A stretch of 64,000 nucleotides of DNA from a virus: positions 9,263 to 73,262 of IMG/VR virus record IMGVR_UViG_3300032323_003671; one strand, given 5' to 3'. Positions within the stretch are counted from its first letter, which is position 1, and each line of letters begins with the position of its first letter. Shown here in pieces: positions 21,596 through 49,537 of this stretch. A program made the position numbers and the translations under genes. The notes beneath the pieces were generated by a model. The model was not told the origin of the DNA, ran no database searches, and saw only the letters and a list, made by a program, of their open reading frames with translations.

Positions 21596-22303
21596 ATGCT
21601 ATTTTCAAGAAGCAATTTAAAAACTTTCTTTGATTCGGTATTAACTGGTGAAAGCAAGACTTATGATGATCACAATTGGTACACTTCTTCAGGATTAAGA
21701 TCATATATTAGAGGAGTCAATCAGAATCGCAACTCTGCATTAAGTAAGGATTTATCTGATACCACTATTGCCGATGTCATGAAATTCCAAAAGAACCAAC
21801 GTTCTAGCACTTCTGGCCAACTTTGGGCTACTGGAAGGTATCAGATTATTCCGACAACCTTAAAAGGCCTTGTGGATAACTATAAAATAAATCCAAATCA
21901 AAAGTATAGTGAAGCGGTTCAGGATGAACTTGGCGAAAAACTTTTACTTGGCAGAAGTAATCTTAGGAAGTACTTAAAGAAAGAAGTTCCTGATACCAAA
22001 GAAAATCGTGAGAAAGCAGCATTGGATATGGCAAAAATATGGAGTTCTATCGGAGTTCCATACGATATGCAAGGTTCAAGAAAAGCTATTAAGAAAAACC
22101 AAAGTTATTATTCTGGAGGTGGTGATACTGCATCTGTAAAAACCGAAACAGTTCAAGCAGCATTGCAAAAATTACGAAACTCAGATAATACAACACAAGA
22201 AAGTCCAAAACCAAATAATAATGGTAAAATTTTGGATAGTGTTTTCATTGCATTGTTTGTCATTGGATCTTACATTTTCTACAAAAAAATGACATCTATT
22301 TAA
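21596..22303 (+). CDS. lysozyme-fold muramidase/transglycosylase with C-terminal membrane anchor
   Basis: GES..Y, ATGRYQIIPTTL, QD motifs; hydrophobic C-terminus. Confidence 0.75.
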   Translation: MLFSRSNLKTFFDSVLTGESKTYDDHNWYTSSGLRSYIRGVNQNRNSALSKDLSDTTIADVMKFQKNQRSSTSGQLWATGRYQIIPTTLKGLVDNYKINPNQKYSEAVQDELGEKLLLGRSNLRKYLKKEVPDTKENREKAALDMAKIWSSIGVPYDMQGSRKAIKKNQSYYSGGGDTASVKTETVQAALQKLRNSDNTTQESPKPNNNGKILDSVFIALFVIGSYIFYKKMTSI

Positions 22304-22337
22304 ACTCTATTGTGTAGTTTGAATCATAGATATTGAT

Positions 22338-22345
22338 TATATTTG
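22338..22345 (+). promoter_or_regulatory. TAnnTTTG promoter element
   Basis: TATATTTG in the intergenic gap upstream of 22362. Confidence 0.6.
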
Positions 22346-22361
22346 AACAAAATAAATTTGT

Positions 22362-22934
22362 ATGAAATTAGGTATTGAAAAATTAATCGAGGAGCAAAAA
22401 CTTGATTTGGAAAATTTACCAGCTGATATTCAAAAGCTGATTACCGATATTAAAAAATCGAAAAGTTCTATTGAATATAGAATTTCAATTGGTCAAAATA
22501 TCAATCCAAAAACGATTGAAAGTCTCAAAGAAAGAGACCAGGAATTGATTGAAAAACTATATGATCATTTAGATATTTCCTCAGACGATGATTCGCAAGA
22601 AGAAGAGGAGGAAGAAGATGATGATGATTCAACCGAAGGTGGCGAGGAAGAAGATGATGATTCACAAGAAGATGAAGAAGACGAAAACCAAGAAGAAAAC
22701 ATGGTAGATTTAAGTAAATACGATGCAAACAAAATAGATTCAGAGTTATCTAGTCTGATTGATCAAGGAATCACAGAAATTAACTTTATGGACATTCGTT
22801 CTGCATGTCCGCATGCTTATGAACTTTTGTTTGAAGCGTATGAAGCCAACAAAGAAAACGGAGTTCGTACAACCTTCTATGAAATGATAGAAACGCAACC
22901 AAATTCAGAAACATTTAAAATCACAAAATTATGA
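22362..22934 (+). CDS. protein with long acidic tract
   Basis: About 40-aa Asp/Glu run. Confidence 0.7.
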   Translation: MKLGIEKLIEEQKLDLENLPADIQKLITDIKKSKSSIEYRISIGQNINPKTIESLKERDQELIEKLYDHLDISSDDDSQEEEEEEDDDDSTEGGEEEDDDSQEDEEDENQEENMVDLSKYDANKIDSELSSLIDQGITEINFMDIRSACPHAYELLFEAYEANKENGVRTTFYEMIETQPNSETFKITKL

Positions 22935-23122
22935 TTGCAACTTTAAGTTCAAGCATGCCTGCAGCACCAACTTCAACAACAGGAGGCGGTGGCGATAAAA
23001 CACTTTTAATTGCGGGTATAATCCTTGGTAGCTTTTTATTGTATAAATTTGTTATCAAGCCAGAAATGGATAGACAAAAAGCATTAAAATATGAAAATAG
23101 CAATGGTGGGGGGCTTGAATAA
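22931..23122 (+). CDS. small membrane protein
   Basis: Single TM helix LLIAGIILGSFLLY. Confidence 0.6.
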   Translation: MIATLSSSMPAAPTSTTGGGGDKTLLIAGIILGSFLLYKFVIKPEMDRQKALKYENSNGGGLE

Positions 23123-23303
23123 AGCTCAAACAATAGGATTAATCACAGCAGTAGGTGTATCTTTGGCAGGTATTATTGCGGTAATTGAGTATGTGAATTC
23201 AAGAAAACACAGAGAATTACAACGTAAGAATGCTGAATTGGAAAATCAAATTAAGCAGTTACAACTTTTGAAGTTGTCAAGCGATTTATCTGGGGAAGTA
23301 TAA
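23091..23303 (+). CDS. small membrane protein with coiled coil
   Basis: TM helix followed by heptad repeat. Confidence 0.6.
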   Translation: MKIAMVGGLNKAQTIGLITAVGVSLAGIIAVIEYVNSRKHRELQRKNAELENQIKQLQLLKLSSDLSGEV

Positions 23304-23569
23304 TCCAAAGCTAAATCCAATAGATAAGCTGTAGTGTACCAACGATCACTTTTCTTATTTGAAACTATATAAAATTGGGCGATTAATTTATCACCTATTT
23401 TGTAGTTTTTAAATATGTTTTTGAAATATTGAGTTTTTGTTGATAGGCAAACATTTCTTTCATTTGTCAATCCAACTTTCAAAACTATATTACAAAAGTC
23501 TTCGGCCTGATTAATTTCTATCAGTTCACCTTTTACCTTATTGAAATGTACTTGGTCGTTTTTTATCAT
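23246..23569 (-). CDS. DUF3127-like OB-fold (ssDNA-binding-like) protein
   Basis: KGELIEI...KIGDKL...F.I.S......RWYT pattern; lone antisense gene. Confidence 0.5.
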   Translation of the reverse strand: MIKNDQVHFNKVKGELIEINQAEDFCNIVLKVGLTNERNVCLSTKTQYFKNIFKNYKIGDKLIAQFYIVSNKKSDRWYTTAYLLDLALDYTSPDKSLDNFKSCNCLI

Positions 23570-23606
23570 ATCTGGAGATAAAGATAATCATTTCAATCAT
23601 AATTAG

Positions 23607-23614
23607 TATATTTG
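23607..23614 (+). promoter_or_regulatory. TAnnTTTG promoter element
   Basis: TATATTTG upstream of 23652. Confidence 0.6.
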
Positions 23615-23651
23615 TTCAAAACAGCACAATTAAAATATAGAGAAGTGAACA

Positions 23652-24083
23652 ATGGAGAATGAAATTCATAAATCAGTATCTTCATTATTGAAAAACATTT
23701 CAGATGGCCTTTCAATGATGTCAATAGACGAATTAAGCAAAGCTATTTCTGATCTTGTTATCAAGAAAAAGTCAAATGTTGGGGATTTAGATAAATTGTA
23801 TAACATAGTATGTGTTGAGTATGATGTATCTAAAAAATCCTTAAACGAAAAATACTCTAGGGGTAATATTTACTTCGCTAAGATTACTCTTTGGACGATT
23901 ATGAATAAACACCTGGGCATTTCAAAAAGAAAGATTGCATCGATGTTTGAAACTTATCCTAATGCAGTCAATGTAGCGATTTCGTATTTCGAAAAATTGA
24001 ATCCCCAAAAATTCAAAGCGGATGATAAGTTTCTTTCAAAATATCAGGTGTGCTTAAACGAATTTTATCAACAAATTAACTAA
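23652..24083 (+). CDS. second DnaA domain IV-like HTH protein
   Basis: IVCVEYDVSKKSL...SR.NI..AK......M.KHLG.S...IA..F pattern. Confidence 0.55.
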   Translation: MENEIHKSVSSLLKNISDGLSMMSIDELSKAISDLVIKKKSNVGDLDKLYNIVCVEYDVSKKSLNEKYSRGNIYFAKITLWTIMNKHLGISKRKIASMFETYPNAVNVAISYFEKLNPQKFKADDKFLSKYQVCLNEFYQQIN

Positions 24084-24085
24084 GG

Positions 24086-25252
24086 ATGGCAAATAAGTAT
24101 TACAAGAAAAGAGGCAATTTAAATTGGAAAGAGCGTAAATTAATTGGCGATATTGAAGAGGCAATTGAAAAGAATCCAAATCTAGCCGATATTGAACCAG
24201 CAACGACTTTTGATGAATTGGAAAAATTGCATGTGAAGGTTACAGCACCTGATGCAAATTTTGAAGAAGTGAAACCTGATACTGAGACTTTGCCAAAAGA
24301 TTCAGGTGAGAAAAAGCCCCAGTCAAATCCTTTTATTGATCCTTTGAATCGTGAAGAACCGAATGTTCGTGATTACGTTCTTGAAGATCAATTTGACCCT
24401 TTTGCCGACCATAATAGTGCAACAAAAAGTACAAGTACTTTTTCTGAACCTACTGATTATGATTCTGCCTTTGGTATTCCAGATGAAGAAGAACTTCGTA
24501 AGCAAGCCAAAGAATCGCAACAACGTCCAGGACAAGCGCAAACACAACAACGTCCACAACCAAGTAATAATCCCCAACCTTCGCAGGATTCAGCTCGTGA
24601 TACTCGAAAGTCAAAACGATTTGCAAAGACAGTAGTAAATACTGTTTGTAATTTGTTTGAAGTTGGTTTTGTTTGGTATGCCACAAAAGATATTTCAGAA
24701 CAGCGATTGACTGAATATGAAATGTCAGGTGAAATGGACTTATCGGTATTGGTTGAATTACCTGATGGTAGTGAAGCTACGGTAAAACAATTCTTTTTAA
24801 ATCAATTAGGTGATATTCAAGCAGCATCAAAAATTGATAAAGAAAAGCGTGATATGCTTGTTGATTCCTTGACTGAGTTATTCATTGAGAAAAATATTCA
24901 GCCAAGTAATACGGTAAACTTTGCAATTGATGCAGTTACTGTTGGTGCAGAGCAAATAATGAAATTGGTGATGATTAGTTCACAAAACAATGCTATCCTC
25001 AATCAACTACGTGAGAGAAATGCAATGATGAAAGAGCAAGGCATGCCTACTCCACCACCTGCGCCAACTCCACCGCCAGCACCTACGCCAACTCCTACTT
25101 CTACGCCAACACCTGCGCCAGAGCCAACTCAATTTGTTCAGACAATGCCATTGACAAATGAAGCAATGCCTATTGAATTTTCTGATCAAGCATTGAGCAA
25201 TGAAATGTCTATGGACTTATCTTTGTTAGATTCAATTGAAACTTCAGAATAA
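24086..25252 (+). CDS. hypothetical protein with Gln- and Pro/Thr-rich linkers, adjacent to packaging ATPase
   Basis: 388-aa ORF, PTPPPAPTP repeats. Confidence 0.7.
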   Translation: MANKYYKKRGNLNWKERKLIGDIEEAIEKNPNLADIEPATTFDELEKLHVKVTAPDANFEEVKPDTETLPKDSGEKKPQSNPFIDPLNREEPNVRDYVLEDQFDPFADHNSATKSTSTFSEPTDYDSAFGIPDEEELRKQAKESQQRPGQAQTQQRPQPSNNPQPSQDSARDTRKSKRFAKTVVNTVCNLFEVGFVWYATKDISEQRLTEYEMSGEMDLSVLVELPDGSEATVKQFFLNQLGDIQAASKIDKEKRDMLVDSLTELFIEKNIQPSNTVNFAIDAVTVGAEQIMKLVMISSQNNAILNQLRERNAMMKEQGMPTPPPAPTPPPAPTPTPTSTPTPAPEPTQFVQTMPLTNEAMPIEFSDQALSNEMSMDLSLLDSIETSE

Positions 25253-25254
25253 TT

Positions 25255-26094
25255 ATGTCAGATTCAAATCTTAGAGAAGCAGGTATGATGGCCATTACTG
25301 GTATTCAAGGTGTCGGAAAGACATACTTGAACCAGCATATTATTTACGACTATGTTCGTGATAAAGTGGCTATTAAAGTACGTGGTAGAAAGTGTCTTAT
25401 TTTTGATACCAATGGTGAGTACACTAAAAGTCAATTTGAGAAAAATGGCATGCAAAACTTTGATGCCAAAATCATTGCCATAAAAGACGTTGGTCAATGG
25501 AGTAAGTCTCCAGGAATTGAATGCCGAAGAATTGATGCAAAAACTTTGCCGATCATGCAAAAGCGTGAGGCTATCGAGTATATCATGAGACATTTTAGAA
25601 ATGGCATGTTAGTACTAGAGGATGTCAACACATATATTCTCAATGTAACACACATGGAGAAAATTGTATCAGGTCTTGTATCTCTTCGACATAGGGCAGT
25701 TGACATTTTGATTTCATATCAGTCTTTGCGTGTAGTAGAGCCTCGTATTTGGCAAAATAGCCGATGGGTGCGCATGCATTACCAAGCGGATAATGTAAAT
25801 GATATCAAGGGTAAAGTAAATAACCCTACGATGTTTAAAATCGCTCAGTACGTTGTAAATAATCGTTATTTCGATGGTGATAAGCGTTTCTATGTTTACA
25901 TTCACAATTTTGCCAATAAGATCGAAGGTGATTTTACTTTGGATGAATTCAAAAAAGCATGCGCTCAATATATCAATGCCAACAAGAAGTATTTGAAAGA
26001 ATATAAAGAAATGAGTAATTGTTCAGATGCCGAAGCTATTGAAGGATTAACAAACCAATATATTTCTCAGTATTATGGAAATGACAATCAATAA
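25255..26094 (+). CDS. FtsK/HerA/A32-like genome packaging ATPase
   Basis: Walker A GIQGVGKT, Walker B MLVLED, then LRH..VDILISYQ (Arg finger and Gln sensor); 279 aa, no nuclease domain. Confidence 0.8.
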   Translation: MSDSNLREAGMMAITGIQGVGKTYLNQHIIYDYVRDKVAIKVRGRKCLIFDTNGEYTKSQFEKNGMQNFDAKIIAIKDVGQWSKSPGIECRRIDAKTLPIMQKREAIEYIMRHFRNGMLVLEDVNTYILNVTHMEKIVSGLVSLRHRAVDILISYQSLRVVEPRIWQNSRWVRMHYQADNVNDIKGKVNNPTMFKIAQYVVNNRYFDGDKRFYVYIHNFANKIEGDFTLDEFKKACAQYINANKKYLKEYKEMSNCSDAEAIEGLTNQYISQYYGNDNQ

Positions 26095-26305
26095 TTTCTT
26101 AGTTATCTGGTTATGTTTGAATGCTATTGCTATTCTATTAGGCATGCTTCGAACTGACTTTTGGAAAATCCAAAAAGACACTGAATTGATTTTTAAAAAT
26201 CATAGCTTTTTGTATAAAACATTTATCAGCATAACTTTATTTATGCTTTTGCCTTTTACTATCGGAGAAACCTTAATTAATATCAAAAATCGCTTAAAAA
26301 AATAA
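26075..26305 (+). CDS. two-TM membrane protein
   Basis: Two hydrophobic segments. Confidence 0.6.
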   Translation: MEMTINNFLVIWLCLNAIAILLGMLRTDFWKIQKDTELIFKNHSFLYKTFISITLFMLLPFTIGETLINIKNRLKK

Positions 26306-26307
26306 GT

Positions 26308-27728: not shown

Positions 27729-27745
27729 TATTTGTTCATAATTGA

Positions 27746-27786
27746 TGCCTTGTATCCTTTACCAATAAGGGATACAGGGCATTTTT
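27746..27786 (+). terminator. intrinsic terminator
   Basis: TGCCTTGTATCCTT / AGGGATACAGGGCA hairpin plus T-run. Confidence 0.75.
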
Positions 27787-27833: not shown

Positions 27834-27841
27834 TAAATTTG
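27834..27841 (+). promoter_or_regulatory. promoter element of the capsid operon
   Basis: TAAATTTG just after the terminator. Confidence 0.55.
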
Positions 27842-28159: not shown

Positions 28160-28912
28160 ATGAACGCAACAGAAAAAGAATTGCATCGCTTTTTAGGGGT
28201 AGCTGAAAAAATGTCTGGATACGATGGTATGGACTATGAAGGCGACCTTTCGTCTTTTGACGATATGGATTTCTTTGATGGTGGAGAAGGTATTAACGAC
28301 CCGATGTCTTTCGCTGATGGTGGAGCATCAACCGTTAACGTTTCTAACCCATACGTTATCCAATATGTTAACTCAACACCAGGTACTCTTACCGCTGTGT
28401 TGTTCGGTTACAACAACTTCTTTAATGATCCAACAGGTCAGTTCGGCAACCCAGTGGGTATCACCGTAACCAACTTGCAAGGTTCATCTTATGCTGCCTT
28501 GATTGGTCAGACTTCAAACAAAGCATTCCAAATTGGAAAATGGCGTTTTCAGTCTGCTTCAGCTGGTCAGTTGAGCCAAACACTTACTGTATCACATTTC
28601 GATGCGAACGGTAACCAATACTCAACTCCGTTGAACTTATCAATCATGCGTGATGCTTACCAGTTCCAGTCAGATATCTTGGATATCACCAAGGTAATCA
28701 CAGTGGACGGTAACACTCAAATCACGTTCCCATTGTTAGCGTTGACTACATTGGTAATCTCTATGTTCCCAGTAAGCGTTGTTAGTACTAAAGCAGTACT
28801 TAACGGTGGTATAGCTCTTAACAAAGCAGTTGCTCCACGTCTTTCTGGTAAAAACGTAGCACCAGTGATTATCAACACTAATCAAAGAGTTGGTGGCGTA
28901 ACCAAAGCGTAG
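28160..28912 (+). CDS. putative major capsid protein (beta-rich, possibly single jelly-roll) with acidic propeptide
   Basis: Strong high-expression codon bias (AAC/TTC/ATC), own terminator, near packaging ATPase, two paralogs; fold is inferred. Confidence 0.6.
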   Translation: MNATEKELHRFLGVAEKMSGYDGMDYEGDLSSFDDMDFFDGGEGINDPMSFADGGASTVNVSNPYVIQYVNSTPGTLTAVLFGYNNFFNDPTGQFGNPVGITVTNLQGSSYAALIGQTSNKAFQIGKWRFQSASAGQLSQTLTVSHFDANGNQYSTPLNLSIMRDAYQFQSDILDITKVITVDGNTQITFPLLALTTLVISMFPVSVVSTKAVLNGGIALNKAVAPRLSGKNVAPVIINTNQRVGGVTKA

Positions 28913-29946: not shown

Positions 29947-29948
29947 TC

Positions 29949-34101: not shown

Positions 34102-34102
34102 T

Positions 34103-40862: not shown

Positions 40863-40873
40863 AACATTGTATA

Positions 40874-41726: not shown

Positions 41727-42671
41727 ATGAAAAACATCATTTTCAAAATTGATGGTGGGATTGGTAAATCCATCATGGCAACTGCAGTTTGTGAGGCAAT
41801 TAAGAAACAATATCCAAACGATAAATTAATTGTTATCACAGCCTATCCAGACGTATTTCTTTGCAATCCAAATGTAGATAAGTGTTATACACATAACAAC
41901 TTATTCTACTTTTATCAGGATTTTGTAGACAATAAGTCTATTCGTGCATTCTTGCATGATCCTTATTTAGAGACATCTTTCATTAAAAGAGAGTGTCATT
42001 TAATTGAAACATGGTGTTCAATGTTTTCTATTAAATACAATGGAGAACAACCAAAATTATATTTGACTGATAGAGAGGTTAATTTCTATGCAAATCAATT
42101 TGCATCTGACAAGCCAATTTTCTTGATTCAAACAAATGGGGGTGGTGCAGAACAAGGAATTAAATATTCTTGGTCTAGAGACATTCCTCAACAAGCTGCA
42201 CAACAAATTGTCAATCATTATGCAAGTAATGGTTTCAATGTAGTGCATATTCGTAGAGAAGACCAATTAGCATTACAGAATACCACTCCAGTATCTGCAG
42301 ATTTTCGTGCAATTGCATCTTTGATAAAATTGTCAAGTGTTCGTCTATTCATGGATAGTTTTGCTCAACACGCAGCAGCAGCACTTGAATTACCAAGTAC
42401 TGTTCTTTGGATTGCAAATACTCCAGAACAATTTGGATACAATATCCATAGCAATATCATTGCGAACAAAGAAACTGCAACTCCAGAATTGAAAAATTCA
42501 GTATTTTCTAGATACAATATTGCAGGTGGCCTTTTAGAATTCCCATACAACTCTGAATCAGAAATTTTCGACTTAGAAAAAGTTGTAAAGTCTATCGATG
42601 ATTTTATCAATCCAGTAGAAACTGAAATTGAAGAAGTACAATTACCGAAGAAAAAATTAAATTCTAAATAA
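41727..42671 (+). CDS. GT9-like (GT-B) glycosyltransferase
   Basis: GGIGK.IMATAV..AIKKQYP, NPNVD, MDSF..HAAAAL.LPS.VLW. Confidence 0.75.
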   Translation: MKNIIFKIDGGIGKSIMATAVCEAIKKQYPNDKLIVITAYPDVFLCNPNVDKCYTHNNLFYFYQDFVDNKSIRAFLHDPYLETSFIKRECHLIETWCSMFSIKYNGEQPKLYLTDREVNFYANQFASDKPIFLIQTNGGGAEQGIKYSWSRDIPQQAAQQIVNHYASNGFNVVHIRREDQLALQNTTPVSADFRAIASLIKLSSVRLFMDSFAQHAAAALELPSTVLWIANTPEQFGYNIHSNIIANKETATPELKNSVFSRYNIAGGLLEFPYNSESEIFDLEKVVKSIDDFINPVETEIEEVQLPKKKLNSK

Positions 42672-42677
42672 TTCGTT

Positions 42678-43502
42678 ATGCCGAAAAAGATTTTTTTTCA
42701 GTCTAGCATGCCTAGATCGGGTTCTACTATTTTACAAAATATCGTAGGTCAAAATCCTAACTTTTATGTTACGCCAACATCAGGTGTTTTGGAATTAGTT
42801 TTTGGTGCTAGAGCCAACTATACAACTTCTCCAGAATTCAAAGCGCAAGATTCTGAATTGATGGCCAAAGCATTTAAGAATTTTTGTGTTCAAGGAATAA
42901 ATGGTTTTTACGATGGTATTACTGACAAACCTTATGTTTTAGACAAAAGCAGAGGTTGGGGAGTTTATCGACCTTTTTTAGATGAATTCTATCCTGATCC
43001 TAAAATCATTTGCATGGTTAGGGATTTAAGAAGTGTTTTGGCTTCTTATGAAAAAATATATCGAAAGTCTCAACTGAAACATGATCCTATTCGTGATGAT
43101 GCCTCAGCTAGGGGTACTACAGTACACAAACGTATTGATGAATGGGTAAATCCTCAGAATACGATTGGTCGTGCAGTAGAGCGTATTTTTGAAATGATTC
43201 GACTTGGATATGATGATAAGATTCTATTTGTAAAATTTGAGGATCTAGCACTTTATCCAGACTTGGAGATGAAACGTATCTATAACTACTTAGGTTTAGA
43301 TTATTTCGAACATGATTTTGATAATATTCAACAAATTACCAAAGAAGACGATGCAGTTTACGGACTGACATCCGATTTACATACAATTAAGCCAAGATTA
43401 GAACCTTTGAAAAAGGATTTCAAAGAAATTCTTGGTAAAGATATTTGTGATTGGATTCAAAATAATTATTCCTGGTATCAAGAAAAATTCAATTATAGAT
43501 AA
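42678..43502 (+). CDS. PAPS-dependent sulfotransferase
   Basis: 5'-PSB MPRSGST, DKSR, 3'-PB VRD.RSVLAS, VKFEDL. Confidence 0.9.
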   Translation: MPKKIFFQSSMPRSGSTILQNIVGQNPNFYVTPTSGVLELVFGARANYTTSPEFKAQDSELMAKAFKNFCVQGINGFYDGITDKPYVLDKSRGWGVYRPFLDEFYPDPKIICMVRDLRSVLASYEKIYRKSQLKHDPIRDDASARGTTVHKRIDEWVNPQNTIGRAVERIFEMIRLGYDDKILFVKFEDLALYPDLEMKRIYNYLGLDYFEHDFDNIQQITKEDDAVYGLTSDLHTIKPRLEPLKKDFKEILGKDICDWIQNNYSWYQEKFNYR

Positions 43503-43536: not shown

Positions 43537-43803
43537 ATGGGAGTTTCTCAAAACATTTGGACATATAAATTATCAGCAGGTACATTGAACATTGATTCAA
43601 ACTATGGATTACTTGTAATTTCAATCATACTTGAATCTGGTACAGGTACAGTTACGGGGACTGCCCTTTTAAATGGTGTGGCATCAACTCCAATAGATCT
43701 TGCAGTAGGTGTTCCTTTGACTATTTCAACAGATGGAAACACAATTCTTGGAGACGTAAGTATTACTACAACAGGTGTAGTTTCTATTGTCGGTAGGTCT
43801 TAG
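43537..43803 (+). CDS. small beta-rich structural protein, paralog of 47744
   Basis: QNIWTY.L....IDS.YGL..IS..L.SG shared; TATCTTTG at 43507. Confidence 0.7.
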   Translation: MGVSQNIWTYKLSAGTLNIDSNYGLLVISIILESGTGTVTGTALLNGVASTPIDLAVGVPLTISTDGNTILGDVSITTTGVVSIVGRS

Positions 43804-43918
43804 TGGTTAATTTTGAACAATTTAATTTCTGAATATTTCAATTCAGATGCTTTCGTATTTTCTATATTTGAAGAATAAATGTATTGAATTGTTTATTAAT
43901 TAATTAAAACCGAAAAAA
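43801..43918 (+). promoter_or_regulatory. 118-bp promoter/leader element, copy 2
   Basis: Colinear with 37899-38016; TATATTTG at 43863. Confidence 0.75.
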
Positions 43919-44296
43919 ATGCCAACAGTACAAGGAACAAACTATCTTCGAGTAGCTACCACAGCAGTATTAGCAGATAGCACATACGATCTTACTTTGA
44001 AAGATAACAATGGTAACGTTTTCCCAAAAACAACCATTGAAATTAACACAACATTGGGTGATGGAGAGTTCAATCTTCCTTCAATTGCCTCTTTAGGTGC
44101 AGCAGCACAAAATTGTCAGGTAGTTATCGTAGTGGATAACTCTACAAATGATGTAATTGTTGATCCTGCATTAACCGATAAAATCGGTGGTTTAGCAGCA
44201 GGCGCACCATACACTATTGCGGCAGGTGCAGCAGGTCAAAATATAGTTCTATATCCAGTGGATGGAACTACATGGGGATTTGTTTACACAGCATAA
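43919..44296 (+). CDS. highly expressed beta-rich structural (decoration/spike-base) protein
   Basis: Own promoter and terminator; resembles N-terminal domain of 35044 (I..(D/N)TTLG......P). Confidence 0.6.
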   Translation: MPTVQGTNYLRVATTAVLADSTYDLTLKDNNGNVFPKTTIEINTTLGDGEFNLPSIASLGAAAQNCQVVIVVDNSTNDVIVDPALTDKIGGLAAGAPYTIAAGAAGQNIVLYPVDGTTWGFVYTA

Positions 44297-44316
44297 TCTA
44301 AACATTCTAGAAAGCA

Positions 44317-44346
44317 AAGGTAGGTAGCAGAAATGTTACCTACCTT
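44317..44346 (+). terminator. hairpin terminator
   Basis: AAGGTAGGTAGCA-GAAA-TGTTACCTACCTT. Confidence 0.7.
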
Positions 44347-44360
44347 ATAATTCATTTTAC

Positions 44361-45170
44361 ATGAAGAACAAGAACATTCTTACTATTGCAGGTATTTTGA
44401 TTGCTGGTTCGGCAATTTATTTTGGTATTAAATGGTATCAAAAAAATCAAGAAGAAAAAAATCAATTACCTAAGCCAGATCCAGTTGTTACTCCTTCTGG
44501 TAATGGTACGGATTTAGCTCCGAGCGATGTGGAAAATCCATTCTTAAATATTGACGAAGTAAAAGCGTTTCAAGATTGGATGGATGCAAAGCACCCTAAT
44601 TGGGTAAATGGTAAGAATTTAAATAAAGGTGCAGGATATGGTAATTTTGGCCCAGCTACAAAGGCAGCCTTTACTACTTATGGTGCTGAATACCTTAAAT
44701 CATTACAACCAGCACCTGCTCAATTGTCTGAGAATCAGAAAAAAGATATTCAGACTATCATGGCTCATGGAACTGGAGATAAATCAAAAGAATCATATTT
44801 AAAAGCAACAATTGCAAAGTATCCTAACTACACTGCTAATTGGGCTAATTCAATTCGTAGAAGAATAGAAACTAATGGCCAACAAGGAACAACTTTCCTT
44901 TTTGCTAATCAGATTTATGAATCTTTTTCTGGAAACAGAATCTATCGTGGCACTTTGCTAGGTAAAAAGCCAGAAGTAAAGGCTAACGCTAAATTGCGTA
45001 GAGAATCTAAATGGAATACAAGCACTCAACCTGTAGGTGTAGGTGCAGACTTAGGTAAAGTCAAAGGTTATTTTTACAATAAAAATGACAAGGCTTTATT
45101 TGTCTATGTTCCAGACCAAAATAAATCCCTAACAAATAAATGGATTTGGGTAGGATCAATAAAATTTTAA
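44361..45170 (+). CDS. membrane-anchored protein with peptidoglycan-binding-like domain
   Basis: N-terminal TM; VKAFQ.W...G.FGPATKAAF motif. Confidence 0.6.
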   Translation: MKNKNILTIAGILIAGSAIYFGIKWYQKNQEEKNQLPKPDPVVTPSGNGTDLAPSDVENPFLNIDEVKAFQDWMDAKHPNWVNGKNLNKGAGYGNFGPATKAAFTTYGAEYLKSLQPAPAQLSENQKKDIQTIMAHGTGDKSKESYLKATIAKYPNYTANWANSIRRRIETNGQQGTTFLFANQIYESFSGNRIYRGTLLGKKPEVKANAKLRRESKWNTSTQPVGVGADLGKVKGYFYNKNDKALFVYVPDQNKSLTNKWIWVGSIKF

Positions 45171-45171
45171 T

Positions 45172-45723
45172 ATGAGAGAGCAAGAAATTAGACCAGTTCG
45201 TTTTATGGTGGCCAATGGATTTTCTGAGTTACGTCCGCCAACAATTTATGGTGATGTATCTCCGATGTCCGCATTTGATGGAGAACCTATCAATGATACA
45301 GAATTCCCATTCACTGAGGAAATTATGCTTGAATTTTCAAATGCCGATGGTAAAGCTAGACGTGCTAAAAGACGTTCTGCTCGATCAGATAAAAAGCAAG
45401 GTAAGGCTAGTGCCAAAAAAGACCGCCAATCAGATAGATCAGCTGCTAGAAAACAGCGTGCTGATATTCGTGAAAGAAGAATGTCTTTGAAAGAAAAAGA
45501 ACAAGCAACACAAGCGGAAGTTGCTAAGAAAATCGGTGAACAATCTCCTGAAGAAATTGCTTTGATGAATCAAATTGCTAGTCAAGGTACTACCAAAAGT
45601 GAAACCGCACCAAAAGTAGGCATGAGTAAAGGTCTTAAAATTGGCCTTATTGCTGGATCCGTTGCTGTTTTGACAATTGTAGTCATTGCCATTGTTAAAT
45701 CCCGTAAAAAATCTAAAAAATGA
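45172..45723 (+). CDS. tail-anchored basic protein
   Basis: FSNADG, then Arg/Lys tract; C-terminal TM. Confidence 0.65.
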   Translation: MREQEIRPVRFMVANGFSELRPPTIYGDVSPMSAFDGEPINDTEFPFTEEIMLEFSNADGKARRAKRRSARSDKKQGKASAKKDRQSDRSAARKQRADIRERRMSLKEKEQATQAEVAKKIGEQSPEEIALMNQIASQGTTKSETAPKVGMSKGLKIGLIAGSVAVLTIVVIAIVKSRKKSKK

Positions 45724-46403
45724 TTGAAGTAAACACAGCTCGTCCAGTATATTCTAATGCTATAGGTGATAAATTAAAAAGATCACCAGAAAAAAAAGCC
45801 AAAACTCAGGAGAATAGAGCCGAACGTGCGGAAAAAAGAAGTGGTCGTAAGGCAAAAAGAAATGCCAAGAAACTTATCCGCATGGAAAATAAAGGCAAAA
45901 AGAAGTTTTTCTATCCTTTAACAAAGATTTTTGGCAAAAAGAAAAAGTACAAAGATGGATCAACAATTGAAGTTCCTGCCGAAAATACAGTTGTAGTTTC
46001 AACCAAAGATGGTAAAACAGCATCTTTGGATAAAACAGAGATTGCAAAAGCACTCAATATTCCTGAAAGCCAGGTTACGCCAGCAAAAGTTCAAGAAGTT
46101 GTTGTGAATGTACCACAAGCAAGTGCAGGCCCAGCAGCAAACGAAACAGGAACTCCAGTAGGTGAGCCAGTTCTTGCAATTCCAATAAAAGATGAAGATG
46201 TAATCATTACAGACGATGGTTCAGCGTATTTATCTGATGATACTCAATCTCAGGATGAAAAATTGAAAAATGTTGCCGATGATGATAAAGAAGCACAGAA
46301 AAAAATTAAAATCGGAAAAATTTTATTGATTTCTGGTGTTGTAATCGTTGTTTTAGGTGCAGTCGTTTACTTTATGAATAAAGATTCAAAAGCTGAAAAA
46401 TAA
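45720..46403 (+). CDS. tail-anchored basic protein
   Basis: MIEVNTARPVYSNAIG, then Lys/Arg tract; C-terminal TM. Confidence 0.65.
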   Translation: MIEVNTARPVYSNAIGDKLKRSPEKKAKTQENRAERAEKRSGRKAKRNAKKLIRMENKGKKKFFYPLTKIFGKKKKYKDGSTIEVPAENTVVVSTKDGKTASLDKTEIAKALNIPESQVTPAKVQEVVVNVPQASAGPAANETGTPVGEPVLAIPIKDEDVIITDDGSAYLSDDTQSQDEKLKNVADDDKEAQKKIKIGKILLISGVVIVVLGAVVYFMNKDSKAEK

Positions 46404-46406
46404 ATC

Positions 46407-46769
46407 ATGGGAAAAGAAAAAGATTTGTTGGGTAATCCATATAAGCAGTCTAATCCTACATTAAGTTTAGGATCAACATTAAGCATCAATACCCCTGCTC
46501 CAATCATCGGAACAAATGGTATTTCATACAAACCAGGTAAGTACACTACTCTTACAAATCCAGATTTAGGCAATCCTTTTAGAAAGAATCCATCAGGAAA
46601 AACAGATATGAGTTTAAAGAAACCTTCTGAAATGAAAATGGATCGCAAAAAATCTGAAACCACTGATCAAACTCAGTCAAATACAATGGGTAAAACTACT
46701 ACTTATGTAATCGTAGGGATACTTGCTGTAGTTGGAATTAGTTTATTATTAAGAACAAATAATGAATAA
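46407..46769 (+). CDS. tail-anchored membrane protein
   Basis: Two LGNP[YF] repeats; C-terminal TM. Confidence 0.6.
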   Translation: MGKEKDLLGNPYKQSNPTLSLGSTLSINTPAPIIGTNGISYKPGKYTTLTNPDLGNPFRKNPSGKTDMSLKKPSEMKMDRKKSETTDQTQSNTMGKTTTYVIVGILAVVGISLLLRTNNE

Positions 46770-46781
46770 ATTTATTGAAAC

Positions 46782-47228
46782 ATGGAAACTATGTTTTATT
46801 TTAGAATTCAAAGTCGTATGAAAATGACCATTTTTTTAACCATTATGTTCCCTCTAGTATCCATGTCATTTATTGCATCATATTGTTATGAAGCAACTTT
46901 ACTTTATTGGCAAGAATACTTTGCCCTATCGATGGCTATTGGTCTTGATGGATTTTTTGGGATGATTAATGGTATTAAGAAAGAAGGATTTAAATCTTTC
47001 AAGGCACTCAGAATCGGTAAATCATTCTTTTCTTGGAATCTTATTCTAACTTCAATACTCATTACACAAAAAGCGTTTCCAGCAGCGTCTTGGCTTGATG
47101 AGACTTTTATTATTCCAGTAATCAGCTTCTTACTTATTTCCACTATTAAAAATGCAAGTCAGGCAGGTTTTATTAAGGCCGAACTTGTAAACGTAATCAT
47201 GGAAAAAATTGACCAACATAAAAATTAA
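46782..47228 (+). CDS. putative holin
   Basis: Multiple TMs, D..FG...G.K, S.IKNA...G pattern of holin_4-like proteins. Confidence 0.6.
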   Translation: METMFYFRIQSRMKMTIFLTIMFPLVSMSFIASYCYEATLLYWQEYFALSMAIGLDGFFGMINGIKKEGFKSFKALRIGKSFFSWNLILTSILITQKAFPAASWLDETFIIPVISFLLISTIKNASQAGFIKAELVNVIMEKIDQHKN

Positions 47229-47231
47229 GCC

Positions 47232-47744
47232 ATGAAATTCGAAAAAAAATACGCTATTGGTGCAGCTATTGGACTTGTTTCTTTAACAGGTTTTTATCTC
47301 TATACTCAGATCATGAAAGTCTTAAACTATCGCTTGGATTTCAAGGGATTTAAGAACGTTTCTATCAATCAGAAAGGCATGTCCTTCACGATTGTATATG
47401 AGTATGAAAATAAAGCAAATATCAGCATCACTTTGGCAGAACAAAAGTATGAAGTGTATATTGATGGAGTGTATATTACGACATTGACAAACTTTGCACC
47501 AAATACTTTGTCGGGAAGCAAGCCTTCTCTTATTGAGGTGAATGTAAATCTTACGCTTGACGAACTCAAAAAAGTAAAATTACCTTGGGCTAGATTACTT
47601 CTTAAACCAGGTGAAGTTGAAGTAACCAATGTAATGCGTTGGAAAGTCAAATATGGCATTTTGAAAATTCCTTACAAATACACTTACAAAGTTTCTTTAA
47701 AAGAAATCATCGGATGGTACGTTCCGATTGTCAATAAGCTCTAA
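47232..47744 (+). CDS. LEA_2/WHy-like membrane-anchored protein
   Basis: N-terminal TM; EN.ANISI.L....Y.VYIDG pattern. Confidence 0.55.
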   Translation: MKFEKKYAIGAAIGLVSLTGFYLYTQIMKVLNYRLDFKGFKNVSINQKGMSFTIVYEYENKANISITLAEQKYEVYIDGVYITTLTNFAPNTLSGSKPSLIEVNVNLTLDELKKVKLPWARLLLKPGEVEVTNVMRWKVKYGILKIPYKYTYKVSLKEIIGWYVPIVNKL

Positions 47745-48013
47745 TGAATAGCATTGGCCAGACAATTTGGACGTATGAGCTAAACAATAATTCGATTTTA
47801 ATTGATCGTACTTATGGTTTAACTATCATTTCATTTACATTAATTTCTGGTGCAGGATTTTATCAAGGTGCAAGTCTAGCCAATTCAATTGCTTCTACGC
47901 CTGTAAACCTAGTAGTAGGTCAAGCTGTAACCATTTGTAGTGATTCAAATAATCCATTAGATCAGTTTCTTATTTCCACAACTGGAGTAATTGCAATAAT
48001 TGGAAAACAATAG
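47744..48013 (+). CDS. small beta-rich structural protein, paralog of 43537
   Basis: Full-length similarity to 43537..43803. Confidence 0.7.
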   Translation: MNSIGQTIWTYELNNNSILIDRTYGLTIISFTLISGAGFYQGASLANSIASTPVNLVVGQAVTICSDSNNPLDQFLISTTGVIAIIGKQ

Positions 48014-48015
48014 AT

Positions 48016-48528
48016 ATGTGTGATAGCTTTGGATTTGATTCAATAAATTCTGGTTCAGCACCTGCAGCACAAAATATCTATGGTAGTTATTTTGATACTA
48101 CTATTCAACAAGCATTAGTTATCAATACTCCTTATGCCATGCTGCTAGATACGGTTGATGTGCAAAATGGCGTACAATTACTTGCTGGATCTCAAATAAA
48201 AGTATTCAATACTGGAGTTTATAATTTGCAATTCTCAGCACAATTATTTAGAACGGGAGGTGGTAATCCTGCATCTATCGATATTTGGATTCGGAAAAAT
48301 GGAACTACAAACGTACCTCATTCAAACACTAAAGTTGACATTCAATCAAATAGTGTATTTCTTGTAGCTGCATGGAATTGGTTTGTTTCTTTGAATGCAG
48401 GCGAATTTGTAGAAATAATGTGGTCAGTTACCGATAATAGGATTCAACTTCAATCAGCACCAGAAAATTTAATAATTCCACATCCTGCAATCCCATCTTT
48501 GATTACGACTATCAATAAAGTTAGTTGA
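48016..48528 (+). CDS. C1q/BclA-C-like beta-sandwich protein (receptor-binding/decoration candidate)
   Basis: I.V..TGVYNLQFSAQ, IWIRKNG, L.AG.FVEI. Confidence 0.6.
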   Translation: MCDSFGFDSINSGSAPAAQNIYGSYFDTTIQQALVINTPYAMLLDTVDVQNGVQLLAGSQIKVFNTGVYNLQFSAQLFRTGGGNPASIDIWIRKNGTTNVPHSNTKVDIQSNSVFLVAAWNWFVSLNAGEFVEIMWSVTDNRIQLQSAPENLIIPHPAIPSLITTINKVS

Positions 48529-48598
48529 TTTTTTATAGTCAACTTTATTAACAATCTGATTTATTGAATTATATTTGTTCAAACTTAAATAAATAGAT

Positions 48599-48838
48599 AT
48601 GAGCTTAACTGGAATGCTTGGCGGATTAATTGACAGTGAAGGAATAGTAACTGAGAAAATCCAAACAACTCTTGATGATTTATCAGAGGAACTAAAAGAA
48701 CCTAACTTTCGTAATTTCTTTATTACGATTATCCCAATCAATGAAGAATTTGATTTTCAATGCGTTGTTTATCATAGAACACCAGAAGGAATAAAAATGG
48801 TTAGAGAAATCACTATCAAAGAAATCGTTGAAAAATAA
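48599..48838 (+). CDS. hypothetical protein
   Basis: 79 aa; TATATTTG promoter element at 48570. Confidence 0.6.
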   Translation: MSLTGMLGGLIDSEGIVTEKIQTTLDDLSEELKEPNFRNFFITIIPINEEFDFQCVVYHRTPEGIKMVREITIKEIVEK

Positions 48839-49197
48839 TGAAAATCGATAGAATATATATCAGTCTATCGTTATCGCTATTTTGCTTAATATTTAGTATC
48901 TGGAGTTATTTCAATTCGAATAAAAAGGATTCAATTAACTCCAATGATACTATTGAAAATTATTTTCTCGATCAAAGAAAATCGATTGAGAAACAAAATC
49001 AATTGCTCATTCACAAACTGGATAGTTTAGAAAAAAAGATTGACAAGAATCAAATTAAACTTGTCCAAATCCAAAACCAGAAAAAAGAAATCGAGTATGT
49101 CTACCAAAATAAAATTAATCAGATTGATGCTTACTATACTAATGGTATCGTCAATGAATTCAATTTGCTTTTCTCAAAAGGTAATTTCCGAAAATAA
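48838..49197 (+). CDS. spanin-like inner-membrane coiled-coil protein
   Basis: N-terminal TM plus coiled coil; overlaps next gene. Confidence 0.5.
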   Translation: MKIDRIYISLSLSLFCLIFSIWSYFNSNKKDSINSNDTIENYFLDQRKSIEKQNQLLIHKLDSLEKKIDKNQIKLVQIQNQKKEIEYVYQNKINQIDAYYTNGIVNEFNLLFSKGNFRK

Positions 49198-49537
49198 TGA
49201 CACTTTGATATGTTTTGATTTAGAACAATCAAAATACATTCTTAAAGAAATGAATCATGCTATCTTTTTAGATAGCATTAATCGCCTCTCGCAATCCGAA
49301 ATAAGATTATTGAACACTACTATCAAAGATTTACAGATAATCGTTGAGAGCCAAAAAGAACAGATAATTTTAAGAGATGTCGATTACAAGATATCCAAGA
49401 CCGAAACAAAATTGCTAAAAGAAAAAAACGAATCCCTTAAAAAAGAGATCCGTTTACAAAAGTTTTACAAATGGCTGTCAATTGGCGTAGGTACAATAAC
49501 TACTTCATTTATGACTTATTTGTATCTGACAAAATAG
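49127..49537 (+). CDS. spanin-like coiled-coil protein with signal peptide and C-terminal TM
   Basis: Starts within the previous gene; ATG 49127 preferred. Confidence 0.5.
   Translation: MLTILMVSSMNSICFSQKVISENNDTLICFDLEQSKYILKEMNHAIFLDSINRLSQSEIRLLNTTIKDLQIIVESQKEQIILRDVDYKISKTETKLLKEKNESLKKEIRLQKFYKWLSIGVGTITTSFMTYLYLTK

What the first reader, a model, noticed from the sequence alone, without database searches (positions are those of the whole stretch)
21596..49537. Virion module of a large tailless, membrane-containing Bacteroidota virus
Seen: a 279-aa ATPase with Walker A/B plus the RH...Q signature; a highly expressed beta-rich 250-aa protein; more than 20 proteins with a single terminal TM helix; fibre-like proteins; and no recognisable terminase, portal, HK97 capsid, tape measure or tail genes in about 28 kb of contiguous structural genes. 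Known: FtsK/HerA/A32-type ATPases package genomes of Varidnaviria-type viruses with internal membranes (PRD1, PM2, sphaerolipoviruses), whose genomes are about 10-30 kb. Inference: a virus of at least 64 kb with this architecture may be an undescribed lineage.
Basis: partly seen in the sequence, partly recalled or inferred. Interest (0 to 1): 0.92.

Follow-up and report, generated by a model that had tools for sequence, protein, structure and literature searches.

The report
Large tailless jelly-roll phage assembly module
This stretch is the particle-building gene block of an uncultured freshwater bacterial virus that has jelly-roll coat-type proteins, a small packaging-type ATPase and many membrane proteins but no tailed-phage genes, in a lineage whose genomes (63-146 kb) are several times larger than those of known bacterial viruses built this way.

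Summary
The window is 64 kb of a 73-kb virus contig. Thirteen genes of 22.3-37.3 kb are shared in order by eight related contigs. One relative (63.3 kb) ends in exact 127-130-nt inverted terminal repeats. Another (146 kb) has at least 48-nt ones. Four contigs stop next to the same first gene, so these are linear genomes with real termini.

Seven Pfam models (large terminase, portal, HK97 capsid, tape measure) hit 0 of 5 genomes. The 63-kb genome has no unexplained ORF of terminase size.

The ATPase has Walker A/B and only sub-threshold HerA/TrwB hits, so membership of the PRD1 P9/A32 clade is not shown. The membrane is inferred from 21 of 42 ORFs with hydrophobic helices.

A Bacteroidota host fits Saprospiraceae bins and genes without Shine-Dalgarno sites.

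No relative exists among 50,697 deposited phages, and six literature searches found no description. This scan noted the same lineage on five other genomes.

The parts
9932..21585 (+). Four ORFs (1137, 1473, 843 and 254 aa, plus one of 160 aa) with polyvalent-protein domains. They lie directly upstream on the same strand and are probably packaged effector or core proteins. They are outside the finding's coordinates but contiguous with it.
   Evidence: Pfam hits above the curated cut-offs: ART-PolyVal, DUF5824, LPD1, LPD11 and DUF6496; DUF3140 scores exactly at its cut-off (25.0 bits against 25). Giant homologs of 1127-2180 aa occupy the same position in G008.
21596..22303 (+). Lysin-like protein of 235 aa with a C-terminal hydrophobic helix. 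Candidate virion-associated wall-degrading enzyme.
   Evidence: phrog_90 'endolysin' E 3.8e-16. Hydrophobic segment at residues 210-228.
22362..24083 (.). Conserved block: an acidic 190-aa protein, two small single-helix membrane proteins (22931-23122, 23091-23303), a conserved minus-strand 107-aa ORF (23246-23569) and a 143-aa protein.
   Evidence: 22362, 23246 and 23652 have homologs in all 8 genomes compared. Hydrophobic helices. No family hits.
24086..25252 (+). Conserved 388-aa protein immediately upstream of the ATPase. It has low-complexity ends. Function unknown; a scaffold or vertex role is a guess.
   Evidence: Homologs lie next to the ATPase in all 8 genomes. No Pfam hit.
25255..26094 (+). 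P-loop ATPase of 279 aa, the candidate genome-packaging motor.
   Evidence: Walker A and B and the RHR...YQS motifs are invariant in 36 homologs. Pfam DUF87/HerA matched 29 of 36 members and TrwB 21 of 36, at whole-protein E 0.01 or better. For the window's own protein both scores fall below the curated cut-offs, and the match covers only residues 7-72. 552 homologs in metagenomes.
26075..26305 (+). 76-aa protein with two hydrophobic helices. Its start overlaps the end of the ATPase gene. Candidate membrane partner of the ATPase, by analogy with PRD1 P20/P22.
   Evidence: Coordinates. Two hydrophobic segments. Homologs in G001, G004 and G005. PRD1 gene order seen.
27744..27783 (+). Terminator-like hairpin of 18 pairs after gene 26802-27728. 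It is followed by TAAATTTG at 27834 and a 34-aa hydrophobic mini-ORF (27879-27983). This marks a transcription-unit boundary just before the coat-candidate gene.
   Evidence: The mini-ORF was read by eye.
28160..28912 (+). Single jelly-roll protein of 250 aa: a short N-terminal helix (residues 3-17), a disordered acidic stretch to about residue 55, then a jelly roll at 60-210. Major capsid protein candidate.
   Evidence: AlphaFold2 pLDDT 86. Fold searches. 625 homologs. 457 clusters at 50% identity. Present in all 8 genomes.
28988..33325 (+). Eight ORFs, mostly with a charged or basic body and one C-terminal hydrophobic helix. Candidate internal-membrane or core proteins.
   Evidence: scores hydrophobic segments in 28988, 29488, 29949, 31443, 32466 and 32960; 31196 and 32155 were judged by eye. 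Four of them (28988, 29488, 31443, 32466) are conserved in all 8 genomes.
33325..34101 (+). 258-aa protein with an HExxH motif. Candidate zinc metallopeptidase, possibly a maturation protease.
   Evidence: H, E and H are invariant in 8 of 8 genomes. Atlas lead: DUF4344 metallopeptidase, score 0.88 (a lead only).
34103..35047 (+). Second jelly-roll protein of 314 aa, with a disordered N-terminal 130 aa and a jelly roll at 140-300. Candidate vertex (penton) protein or second capsid protein. Its stop overlaps the start of the next gene.
   Evidence: AlphaFold2 pLDDT 63 overall, 70-88 in the C-terminal domain. Homologous to the 250-aa family: hhalign probability 95.5%, E 1.5e-8, 140 columns. Fold search. 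425 homologs.
35044..37281 (+). 745-aa N/S/T-rich protein. Candidate spike or fibre attached at the vertex.
   Evidence: Composition. Homologs in all 8 genomes, with variable length of 270-894 aa. No family hit.
38334..40862 (+). 842-aa G/S/N-rich repeat protein, a second fibre-like candidate. No homolog in the seven other contigs at the BLAST threshold used.
   Evidence: Composition. It is absent from the homolog tables. No family hit.
40826..41338 (+). Endolysin (M15 peptidase).
   Evidence: Pfam Peptidase_M15_3, 63.5 bits against a cut-off of 23.2. phrog_894 'endolysin' E 1e-35.
41727..43502 (+). Non-structural insert: a 314-aa ORF without a family hit, and a sulfotransferase.
   Evidence: Sulfotransfer_3 E 7e-19.
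43537..49537 (+). Distal part of the module. It holds two paralogous 88-89-aa beta-rich proteins (43537, 47744), membrane-anchored proteins (44361, 45172, 45720, 46407), a holin (46782-47228) and small conserved ORFs up to 49537.
   Evidence: Holin family 22.3 bits against a cut-off of 22.2. Hydrophobic helices. Synteny with G001, G003, G004 and G005.
1503..2108 (+). Third jelly-roll paralog (201 aa, no acidic leader), located among the early genes.
   Evidence: hhalign of the 250-aa family profile against this ORF: probability 99.4%, E 3.2e-21, 147 columns.

Best explanation
The region is the late (morphogenesis and lysis) operon of a large, non-tailed, probably icosahedral dsDNA virus with an internal membrane. 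The host is a Bacteroidota bacterium, and the genome is linear with inverted terminal repeats.

Proposed working, with each step marked as shown or inferred:

1. A single-strand late transcription block (9.9-49.5 kb) first makes giant polyvalent proteins, which are packed into the particle (inferred).
2. The 250-aa single jelly-roll protein is made from its own transcription unit and builds the capsid lattice. The fold is shown; the role is inferred.
3. Its 314-aa paralog is translationally coupled to a 745-aa fibre gene. It forms the vertices, or acts as a second lattice protein as in two-coat-protein viruses (inferred).
4. About 17-20 small single-helix proteins populate a lipid layer under the shell (inferred from gene content).
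5. The 279-aa P-loop ATPase, together with the overlapping two-helix 76-aa protein, pumps the linear genome into the preformed shell at one vertex. The motifs are shown; the role is inferred by analogy with PRD1 P9/P20/P22.
6. An HExxH protein may trim precursors (inferred).
7. The holin and the M15 endolysin release the progeny. Family membership is shown for both.
For: The lineage and its termini are real.
- Thirteen genes between 22362 and 37281 are shared in the same order by all 8 contigs compared.
- G008 (63,287 nt) has 130-nt terminal inverted repeats at 99.2% identity. IMG/VR also labels it as having ITRs. Each repeat contains a TATCTTTG motif and the ATG of an inward-facing terminal gene.
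- G006 (146,216 nt) has a repeat of at least 48 nt, with one end 17 nt shorter.
- G000, G001, G005 and G006 all stop within about 260-400 nt outside the same first gene.

There is no head-tail module.
- Pfam Terminase_6N, TerL_ATPase, Terminase_3, Phage_portal, SPP1_portal, Phage_capsid and PhageMin_Tail each hit 0 of 5 genomes in six frames at E 0.1 or less, while the control genomes rang.
- None appeared among the 97 window ORFs scanned with Pfam.
- In G008 the 10 ORFs of 300 aa or more are: four polyvalent giants, RecT, an aminotransferase-like protein, the homologs of 24086, 29949 and 34103, and a 738-aa fibre-like protein.

The proteins are jelly rolls.
- 57 BFVD matches have E 1e-3 or less, and the picorna-like capsids lead them.
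- Paralogy is shown.

The host is bacterial and the element lyses it.
- Endolysins and a holin.
- VanY, OmpA and SLT domains.
- DnaB, and RusA, HNH and Acb2/Tad1.
- 2 of 3 genome-collection hits lie in Saprospiraceae MAGs.
- Only 4 of 97 genes have a Shine-Dalgarno core, and the upstream regions are A-rich.

Membrane proteins are enriched: 21 of 42 ORFs in the region against 11 of 73 outside it.
Against: - P23-77 VP16/VP17 do not appear in the 50 rows shown for either model.
- HMMs of the three families find nothing in PRD1, P23-77 or SSIP-1 (best E 1.3).
- The ATPase profile finds no solved structure (best E 0.48, an unrelated enzyme). It aligns to PRD1 P9 and P23-77 ORF13 only over Walker A (probability 0.6% and 2.9%).
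- The ATPase's Pfam hits are below the cut-offs, and they include the conjugative coupling protein TrwB as well as HerA.
- The ATPase was not folded here.
- Membrane, particle shape and packaging are inferred, with no direct evidence.
- The summary outputs showed only the first 25 families, so weak structural hits could be hidden.
- CheckV rates all these contigs 19-74% complete, and Atlas clusters carry the label Uroviricota. I take both as defaults for unknown phages, but I did not verify that.
Confidence: 0.68

Rival explanations
1. It is a virus, but with another particle design. The jelly-roll paralogs would be spikes, turrets or minor proteins, and the shell would be built from a protein not recognised here. 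Alternatively the particle is enveloped or pleomorphic, and the ATPase acts in membrane-linked assembly like Zot/pI.
For: - Atlas neighbours of the ATPase carry Zot on 11-14% of members as well as DUF87.
- Half of the ORFs have hydrophobic helices.
- Only two of the region's 42 proteins were folded.
Against: - The 250-aa protein is one of 13 genes universal across the 8 genomes.
- It sits behind its own terminator and promoter-like boundary.
- It has 457 clusters at 50% identity.
- No other conserved beta-rich protein of coat size exists in the 63-kb ITR-bounded genome.
- Genomes of 63-146 kb are large for the pleomorphic or filamentous bacterial viruses I can recall.
Confidence: 0.17
2. It is a tailed phage whose terminase, portal and HK97 capsid genes are too divergent to detect, or lie on unassembled parts of the genome.
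For: CheckV completeness is 19-74% for all contigs. Atlas clusters are labelled Uroviricota. G000 itself is incomplete at its right end, which lies in a repeat.
Against: - Seven hallmark Pfam models hit 0 of 5 genomes while the controls rang.
- G008 is bounded by terminal repeats and has no unexplained ORF of terminase size.
- G006 spans 146 kb between inverted repeats without such genes among the 119 ORFs of 140 aa or more that were scanned. Only the best 25 of 42 families were shown, and 5 ORFs that straddled fetch boundaries were left out.
Confidence: 0.06
3. It is not a virus but a linear plasmid-like or conjugative element. The polyvalent proteins and the small ATPase would then serve DNA transfer.
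For: Polyvalent-protein domains are, as I recall from Iyer et al. 2017 (a paper I did not see), also typical of conjugative elements (domains found). TrwB-type hits occur in 21 of 36 ATPase homologs.
Against: - No relaxase, VirB4, TraG or other transfer family appears among the 24 families found in 77 ORFs (a complete list) or.
- The ATPase is 279 aa, far shorter than coupling proteins; the TrwB Pfam profile alone has 387 positions.
- No match in 72,556 plasmid records.
- A holin and endolysins are present.
- The jelly-roll protein family is conserved.
Confidence: 0.05
4. It is a virus of a eukaryote. One relative carries a giant-virus MAG name.
For: One of the 18 related IMG/VR contigs is named GVMAG. 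The low GC content (32%) and the jelly-roll proteins also fit.
Against: - Peptidoglycan hydrolases, a holin and an OmpA domain are present, together with DnaB, DnaA-type HTH, RusA, IS605 TnpB, a tmRNA gene and Acb2/Tad1.
- The genes are tightly packed on single strands.
- Related contigs are binned with Saprospiraceae.
Confidence: 0.02

Closest known systems
Halopanivirales (Thermus phage P23-77, haloarchaeal SH1-type viruses; kingdom Helvetiavirae)
   Same: The coat-type proteins have one jelly roll each and are present as paralogs. A small P-loop ATPase gene lies close upstream, and many small membrane proteins are present. In P23-77 the order ATPase, then VP16, then VP17 was seen. I recall, without checking, that SH1 has a linear genome with ITRs.
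   Different: - Genomes are 63-146 kb, against 17 kb for P23-77.
- The two jelly-roll genes lie 5 kb apart, not adjacent.
- There is no sequence or profile similarity to P23-77 proteins.
- P23-77 coat proteins are not among the 50 best fold rows shown.
- Polyvalent giant proteins are present.
- The host is a Bacteroidota bacterium.
Tectiviridae (PRD1/PR772) and other bacterial double jelly-roll viruses such as PM2
   Same: - A linear genome with ITRs (recalled for PRD1).
- An ATPase flanked by tiny membrane proteins (P9, P20 and P22).
- A single jelly-roll vertex protein followed by a spike gene (P31 then P5), like 34103 followed by 35044.
   Different: - No double jelly-roll protein was found in this genome.
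- No protein-primed polymerase or terminal protein was detected.
- The genome is 4-10 times larger. Prokaryotic double jelly-roll viruses are 'roughly between 7 and 18 kb' (passage of PMC5894146).
- hhalign against PRD1 P9 aligns only Walker A.
Salisaeta icosahedral phage 1 (SSIP-1)
   Same: It is a tailless phage, which I recall as membrane-containing, of a halophilic bacterium, with a comparatively large genome (43,788 nt). It has a giant structural protein, gp43, whose gene spans 6,960 nt. This resembles the polyvalent giants here.
   Different: Its genome is circular. The profiles of the two jelly-roll families and of the ATPase find nothing in its ORFs (best E 1.3).
FLiP / phiCjT23 (lipid-containing phages of Flavobacterium)
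   Different: Those viruses have small ssDNA genomes and a double jelly-roll coat protein (phiCjT23 is described as a lipid-containing ssDNA phage in the abstract listed). I recall that they lack a packaging ATPase.

Membership tests
Caudoviricetes (tailed phages) | Large terminase subunit | tested here: not met
   PF03237, PF03354 and PF04466 each hit 0 of 5 genomes at E 0.1 or less, and the controls rang. No unexplained ORF of 400 aa or more exists in ITR-bounded G008. This test is by sequence only.
Caudoviricetes (tailed phages) | Portal protein | tested here: not met
   PF04860 and PF05133 each hit 0 of 5 genomes. This test is by sequence only, and other portal families were not searched.
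Caudoviricetes (tailed phages) | HK97-fold major capsid protein | tested here: inconclusive
   PF05065 hit 0 of 5 genomes. Only two proteins were folded, so a divergent HK97 fold among the unfolded proteins is not excluded.
Bamfordvirae-type viruses (PRD1, PM2, FLiP) | [quoted passage not shown] | tested here: not met
   The 250-aa and 314-aa models each contain one jelly roll. However, 5 of 150 family representatives from other sources carry 2-3 tandem domains.
Helvetiavirae-type viruses (P23-77, SH1) | Two single jelly-roll capsid proteins | tested here: inconclusive
   Two conserved single jelly-roll paralogs are present. Their role in the lattice, their vertical orientation and their kinship with VP16/VP17 are not shown (and the lists).
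A32 / PRD1 P9 / STIV2 B204 packaging ATPases (FtsK-HerA superfamily) | Walker A and Walker B motifs | tested here: met
   GIQGVGKT and MLVLED are invariant in 36 sequences.
A32 / PRD1 P9 / STIV2 B204 packaging ATPases (FtsK-HerA superfamily) | Detectable homology to FtsK-HerA members beyond the P-loop | tested here: inconclusive
   DUF87/HerA matched 29 of 36 members and TrwB 21 of 36, at whole-protein E 0.01 or better. For the window's protein both are sub-threshold and cover only residues 7-72. The PDB profile search found no member. PRD1 P9 and P23-77 ORF13 align over Walker A only.
A32 / PRD1 P9 / STIV2 B204 packaging ATPases (FtsK-HerA superfamily) | Fold with the clade-specific arginine finger and sensor arrangement | not tested
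Conserved R91/R92, R145, R147 and Q156 are candidates only.
Membrane-containing icosahedral phages | Lipid bilayer under the capsid | not testable with these tools
   The only evidence is gene content: 21 of 42 ORFs have a hydrophobic helix.
Polyvalent proteins (as I recall from Iyer et al. 2017, a paper I did not see) | Large proteins that combine LPD and ART-PolyVal type domains | tested here: met
   ART-PolyVal at 86 bits, LPD1 at 47 bits, LPD11 at 105.5 bits and DUF6496 at 33 bits, all above the cut-offs.

The most novel reading that the evidence does not exclude
These contigs represent a previously undescribed, high-rank lineage of non-tailed dsDNA viruses of aquatic Bacteroidota. Their genomes are linear, ITR-bounded and 63-146 kb long, in the size range of large tailed phages.

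The shell would be built from single jelly-roll paralogs that are unrelated in sequence to any classified virus. The same protein family also occurs naturally as two- and three-domain fusions. It could therefore be a living series for the step from single to double jelly-roll capsid proteins.

The particles would also carry giant polyvalent effector proteins, a feature so far tied to tailed phages and conjugative elements.
Probability: 0.35. Interest if true: 0.95.

Novelty: new variant of a known kind. Interest (0 to 1): 0.85.

Why it matters
The bacterial and archaeal jelly-roll viruses that could be checked or recalled here are small. Prokaryotic double jelly-roll viruses span 7-18 kb (PMC5894146 passage). 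P23-77 has 17 kb and SSIP-1 has 43.8 kb. Large genomes among bacterial viruses have been the preserve of tailed phages.

A widespread lineage with this gene set at 63-146 kb would show that the non-tailed design scales up in bacteria as it does in eukaryotic giant viruses. The lineage has 457 clusters at 50% identity for the coat candidate. Near-identical DNA occurs in 20 runs of 11 studies.

It would also point to a blind spot of marker-based virus classification. These contigs are rated 19-74% complete, their protein clusters are labelled Uroviricota, one contig is binned as a giant-virus MAG and another as an archaeon.

Finally, it offers testable material for two open questions: how double jelly-roll coats arose, and how large genomes are packed through a membrane-lined vertex.

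Tried and rejected
- Complex prediction on the jelly-roll domains of the 250-aa and 314-aa proteins returned 'no answer' (score 0.00, mark 0.32). This is no evidence either way.
- The look-up of sequencing runs listed no RNA holder. One row is only a guessed RNA run kept as contigs. Expression was therefore not tested.
- Read laying on 50001-64000 used contigs only. It did not define the right terminus. It showed that 54.3-55.8 kb and 63.4-63.8 kb share a repeat that breaks assemblies.
- P23-77 VP16/VP17 and SH1-type coats were not in the 50 rows shown. That does not exclude them.
- The ATPase profile against PDB sequences found only an unrelated enzyme at E 0.48.
- tblastn of the ATPase against phage records found no match at E 1e-3 or at E 10. 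Against plasmid records there was no match.
- tblastn of the coat candidate against phage records gave one hit at E 0.3.
- HMMs of A2, A3 and A4 against the ORFs of PRD1, P23-77 and SSIP-1 gave nothing better than E 1.3.
- The TANNTTTG count in the window was 121 against 101.6 +/- 10 expected, and 3 of 100 shuffles reached it. Density was 3.8 per kb in intergenic DNA against 1.7 per kb in coding DNA. This is only weak support for Bacteroidota-type promoters.
- G000's own two ends showed no terminal repeat.
- A 111-nt inverted repeat in G003 is not terminal on its right side, and I left it aside.
- Six literature searches listed no paper on such a lineage. I saw listings and abstract starts only, apart from passages of PMC5894146.
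- Notes of this scan on five other genomes reach the same reading. I treat them as leads, not as support. I could not test their claim that the ATPase resembles STIV2 B204 structurally.

Full report
WHAT THE WINDOW IS. The window is bases 9263-73262 of a 73,262-nt IMG/VR virus record. The record is labelled linear, and CheckV rates it 48% complete. GC content is 27-39%. The 9.2 kb upstream of the window hold small ORFs and a DnaB-type helicase. Within the window:
- 0-7.6 kb carries early-type genes on the + strand, including DNA methylases and a DnaA-type HTH protein.
- 7.9-9.7 kb carries VanY, OmpA and SLT genes on the - strand.
- 9.9-49.5 kb is one uninterrupted + strand block.
- 49.5-64 kb carries small - strand genes.

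THE OBSERVATION. The 279-aa ORF has GIQGVGKT, MLVLED and LRHRAVDILISYQS motifs, which are invariant or nearly so in 36 homologs. A hydrophobicity scan finds a helix-like segment in 21 of 42 ORFs of the region. Seventeen of these have a single terminal segment, one of which is a false positive. Outside the region the figure is 11 of 73. The two long N/S/T/G-rich proteins hit no family. The block is not purely structural. It holds an M15 endolysin, a holin, a sulfotransferase and glycosyltransferase-like ORFs. Upstream, four large ORFs carry polyvalent-protein domains above the Pfam cut-offs.

RELATIVES AND GENOME ENDS. The ATPase finds 18 IMG/VR contigs of 19-146 kb. I fetched seven of them whole. 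Thirteen genes between 22362 and 37281 occur in the same order in all eight genomes.

G008 (63,287 nt) carries 130-nt inverted repeats exactly at both ends, at 99.2% identity, and IMG/VR labels it so. Each repeat holds a TATCTTTG motif and the ATG of an inward-facing gene, which argues against an assembly artefact. G006 (146,216 nt) has a repeat of at least 48 nt that runs to the contig end on one side and stops 17 nt from the end on the other. The left ends of G000, G001 and G005 and the right end of G006 all lie 260-400 nt outside the same first gene.

I conclude that the lineage has linear genomes with inverted terminal repeats, that G008 is complete and that G006 is nearly so. G000 lacks its right end, which lies in a repeat.

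ABSENCE OF A HEAD-TAIL MODULE. Seven Pfam hallmark models were searched in six frames in G000, G002, G004, G006 and G008 at E 0.1 or less: three for the large terminase, two for portal, one for HK97 capsid and one for tape measure. Each hit 0 of 5 genomes, while the control genomes rang.

Per-ORF scans showed no such family:
- Pfam on 97 window ORFs (the list was complete at 24 families).
- PHROGs on 87 window ORFs.
- Pfam on 119 G006 ORFs.
- Pfam and PHROGs on 78 G008 ORFs.
Searches displayed only the top 25 families.

All ten G008 ORFs of 300 aa or more are accounted for otherwise.

THE JELLY-ROLL PROTEINS. The 250-aa protein has 625 homologs and 457 clusters at 50% identity. With 109 sequences, AlphaFold2 gives pLDDT 86. 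The model has a short N-terminal helix, a disordered acidic stretch and an eight-stranded sandwich at residues 60-210.

Foldseek against the PDB finds only weak matches (best E 1.4e-3), and picorna-like capsids lead them. BFVD gives 57 matches at E 1e-3 or less of the same kind.

The 314-aa protein has 425 homologs. It has a disordered N-terminal 130 residues and a C-terminal jelly roll, with a similar hit list. Profile comparison shows that the two families are homologous: probability 95.5%, E 1.5e-8. A 201-aa ORF at 1503-2108 is a third paralog: probability 99.4%. Five of 150 family representatives have two or three tandem domains.

THE ATPASE. It has 552 homologs at 67% identity or more among the 120 listed. 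Pfam gives DUF87/HerA in 29 of 36 members and TrwB in 21 of 36, at whole-protein E 0.01 or better. For the window's own protein both are below the cut-offs and cover only the first 70 residues. Atlas neighbours carry DUF87 or Zot on 11-20% of members. A profile search of PDB sequences finds nothing relevant. PRD1 P9 and P23-77 ORF13 align over Walker A only.

The protein fits the FtsK-HerA superfamily in a loose sense.

HOST.
- Two of three hits in the species-genome collection lie in Saprospiraceae MAGs, and the third lies in a bin labelled archaeon.
- Only 4 of 97 genes have a Shine-Dalgarno core, and positions -13 to -10 and -4 to -3 are A-rich. I recall this pattern as typical of Bacteroidota.
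- The TAnnTTTG motif is only mildly enriched.
- Near-identical DNA occurs in 20 runs of 11 studies, and the labelled ones are freshwater, aquatic, wastewater and subsurface.

COMPARISON WITH KNOWN VIRUSES. The gene logic matches non-tailed, membrane-containing viruses: an ATPase with a tiny membrane partner, a jelly-roll coat, membrane proteins, and a jelly-roll vertex candidate followed by a fibre. PRD1 and P23-77 show this order. No sequence or profile link to PRD1, P23-77 or SSIP-1 was found.

Size is the main difference. Prokaryotic double jelly-roll viruses are 'roughly between 7 and 18 kb' (passage of PMC5894146). P23-77 has 17 kb and SSIP-1 has 43.8 kb. The polyvalent giants are a second difference, although SSIP-1 also has a giant structural protein.

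NOVELTY. There is no relative in 50,697 deposited phage genomes or in 72,556 plasmids. Six literature searches listed no description. This scan has noted the same kind of virus on five other genomes. I did not test those notes, except for the SSIP-1 genome length.

VERDICT. The reading as the morphogenesis module of a large non-tailed, probably membrane-containing virus of Bacteroidota is the best supported (about 0.68). The main rival is a virus with a different particle design (0.17). A tailed phage, a plasmid-like element and a eukaryotic virus are each unlikely.

Noticed in passing
L050:1-130 and L053:3158-3287 (G008 ends): The 127-130-nt inverted terminal repeat holds a TATCTTTG motif about 40 nt before an ATG. 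Both terminal genes therefore start inside the repeat and read inward.
   Followed up: partly
P0155, P0177, P0232, P0238, P0261 (family representatives): Five of 150 representatives of the 250-aa family carry two or three tandem copies of the jelly-roll domain in one polypeptide.
   Followed up: partly
window 7605-7948 (-): ARAGORN calls a permuted tmRNA gene with tag peptide GNVIEMFPKLRAVA.
   Followed up: no
window 33325-34101: A conserved 258-aa protein with an invariant HExxH motif in 8 of 8 genomes, directly upstream of the second jelly-roll gene. It is a possible maturation protease.
   Followed up: partly
window 54300-55800 and 63400-63800: Repeated sequence with several-fold higher contig depth and many joints in four runs. 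The 138-aa ORF at 63335-63751 has five paralogs in the long arm of G006.
   Followed up: no
L054:332-1594 and two further ORFs of G006: Three IS605 OrfB/TnpB-type genes lie in the 146-kb relative, one at its extreme left end. The same arm carries thymidylate synthase, NAPRTase and RNA ligase genes.
   Followed up: no
window 23246-23569 (-): This is the only minus-strand ORF inside the late block. It encodes 107 aa and is conserved in all 8 genomes. Function unknown.
   Followed up: no
window 27879-27983: A 34-aa hydrophobic mini-ORF lies between a strong terminator-like hairpin and the coat-candidate gene. I read it by eye.
   Followed up: no
whole window: Only 4 of 97 genes have a Shine-Dalgarno core. 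The upstream regions are A-rich at -13 to -10 and at -4 to -3.
   Followed up: yes
L007/L037 and L062: One relative is filed as a giant-virus MAG contig and another sits in a bin labelled archaeon. These are probably binning errors.
   Followed up: no
window 1-7600 and 49500-64000: Accessory genes found by Pfam include an Acb2/Tad1 hairpin domain, a Zeta-toxin-like kinase, APS kinase, RusA, HNH endonucleases and an RNA polymerase alpha C-terminal domain. I did not work out which ORF carries which domain.
   Followed up: no
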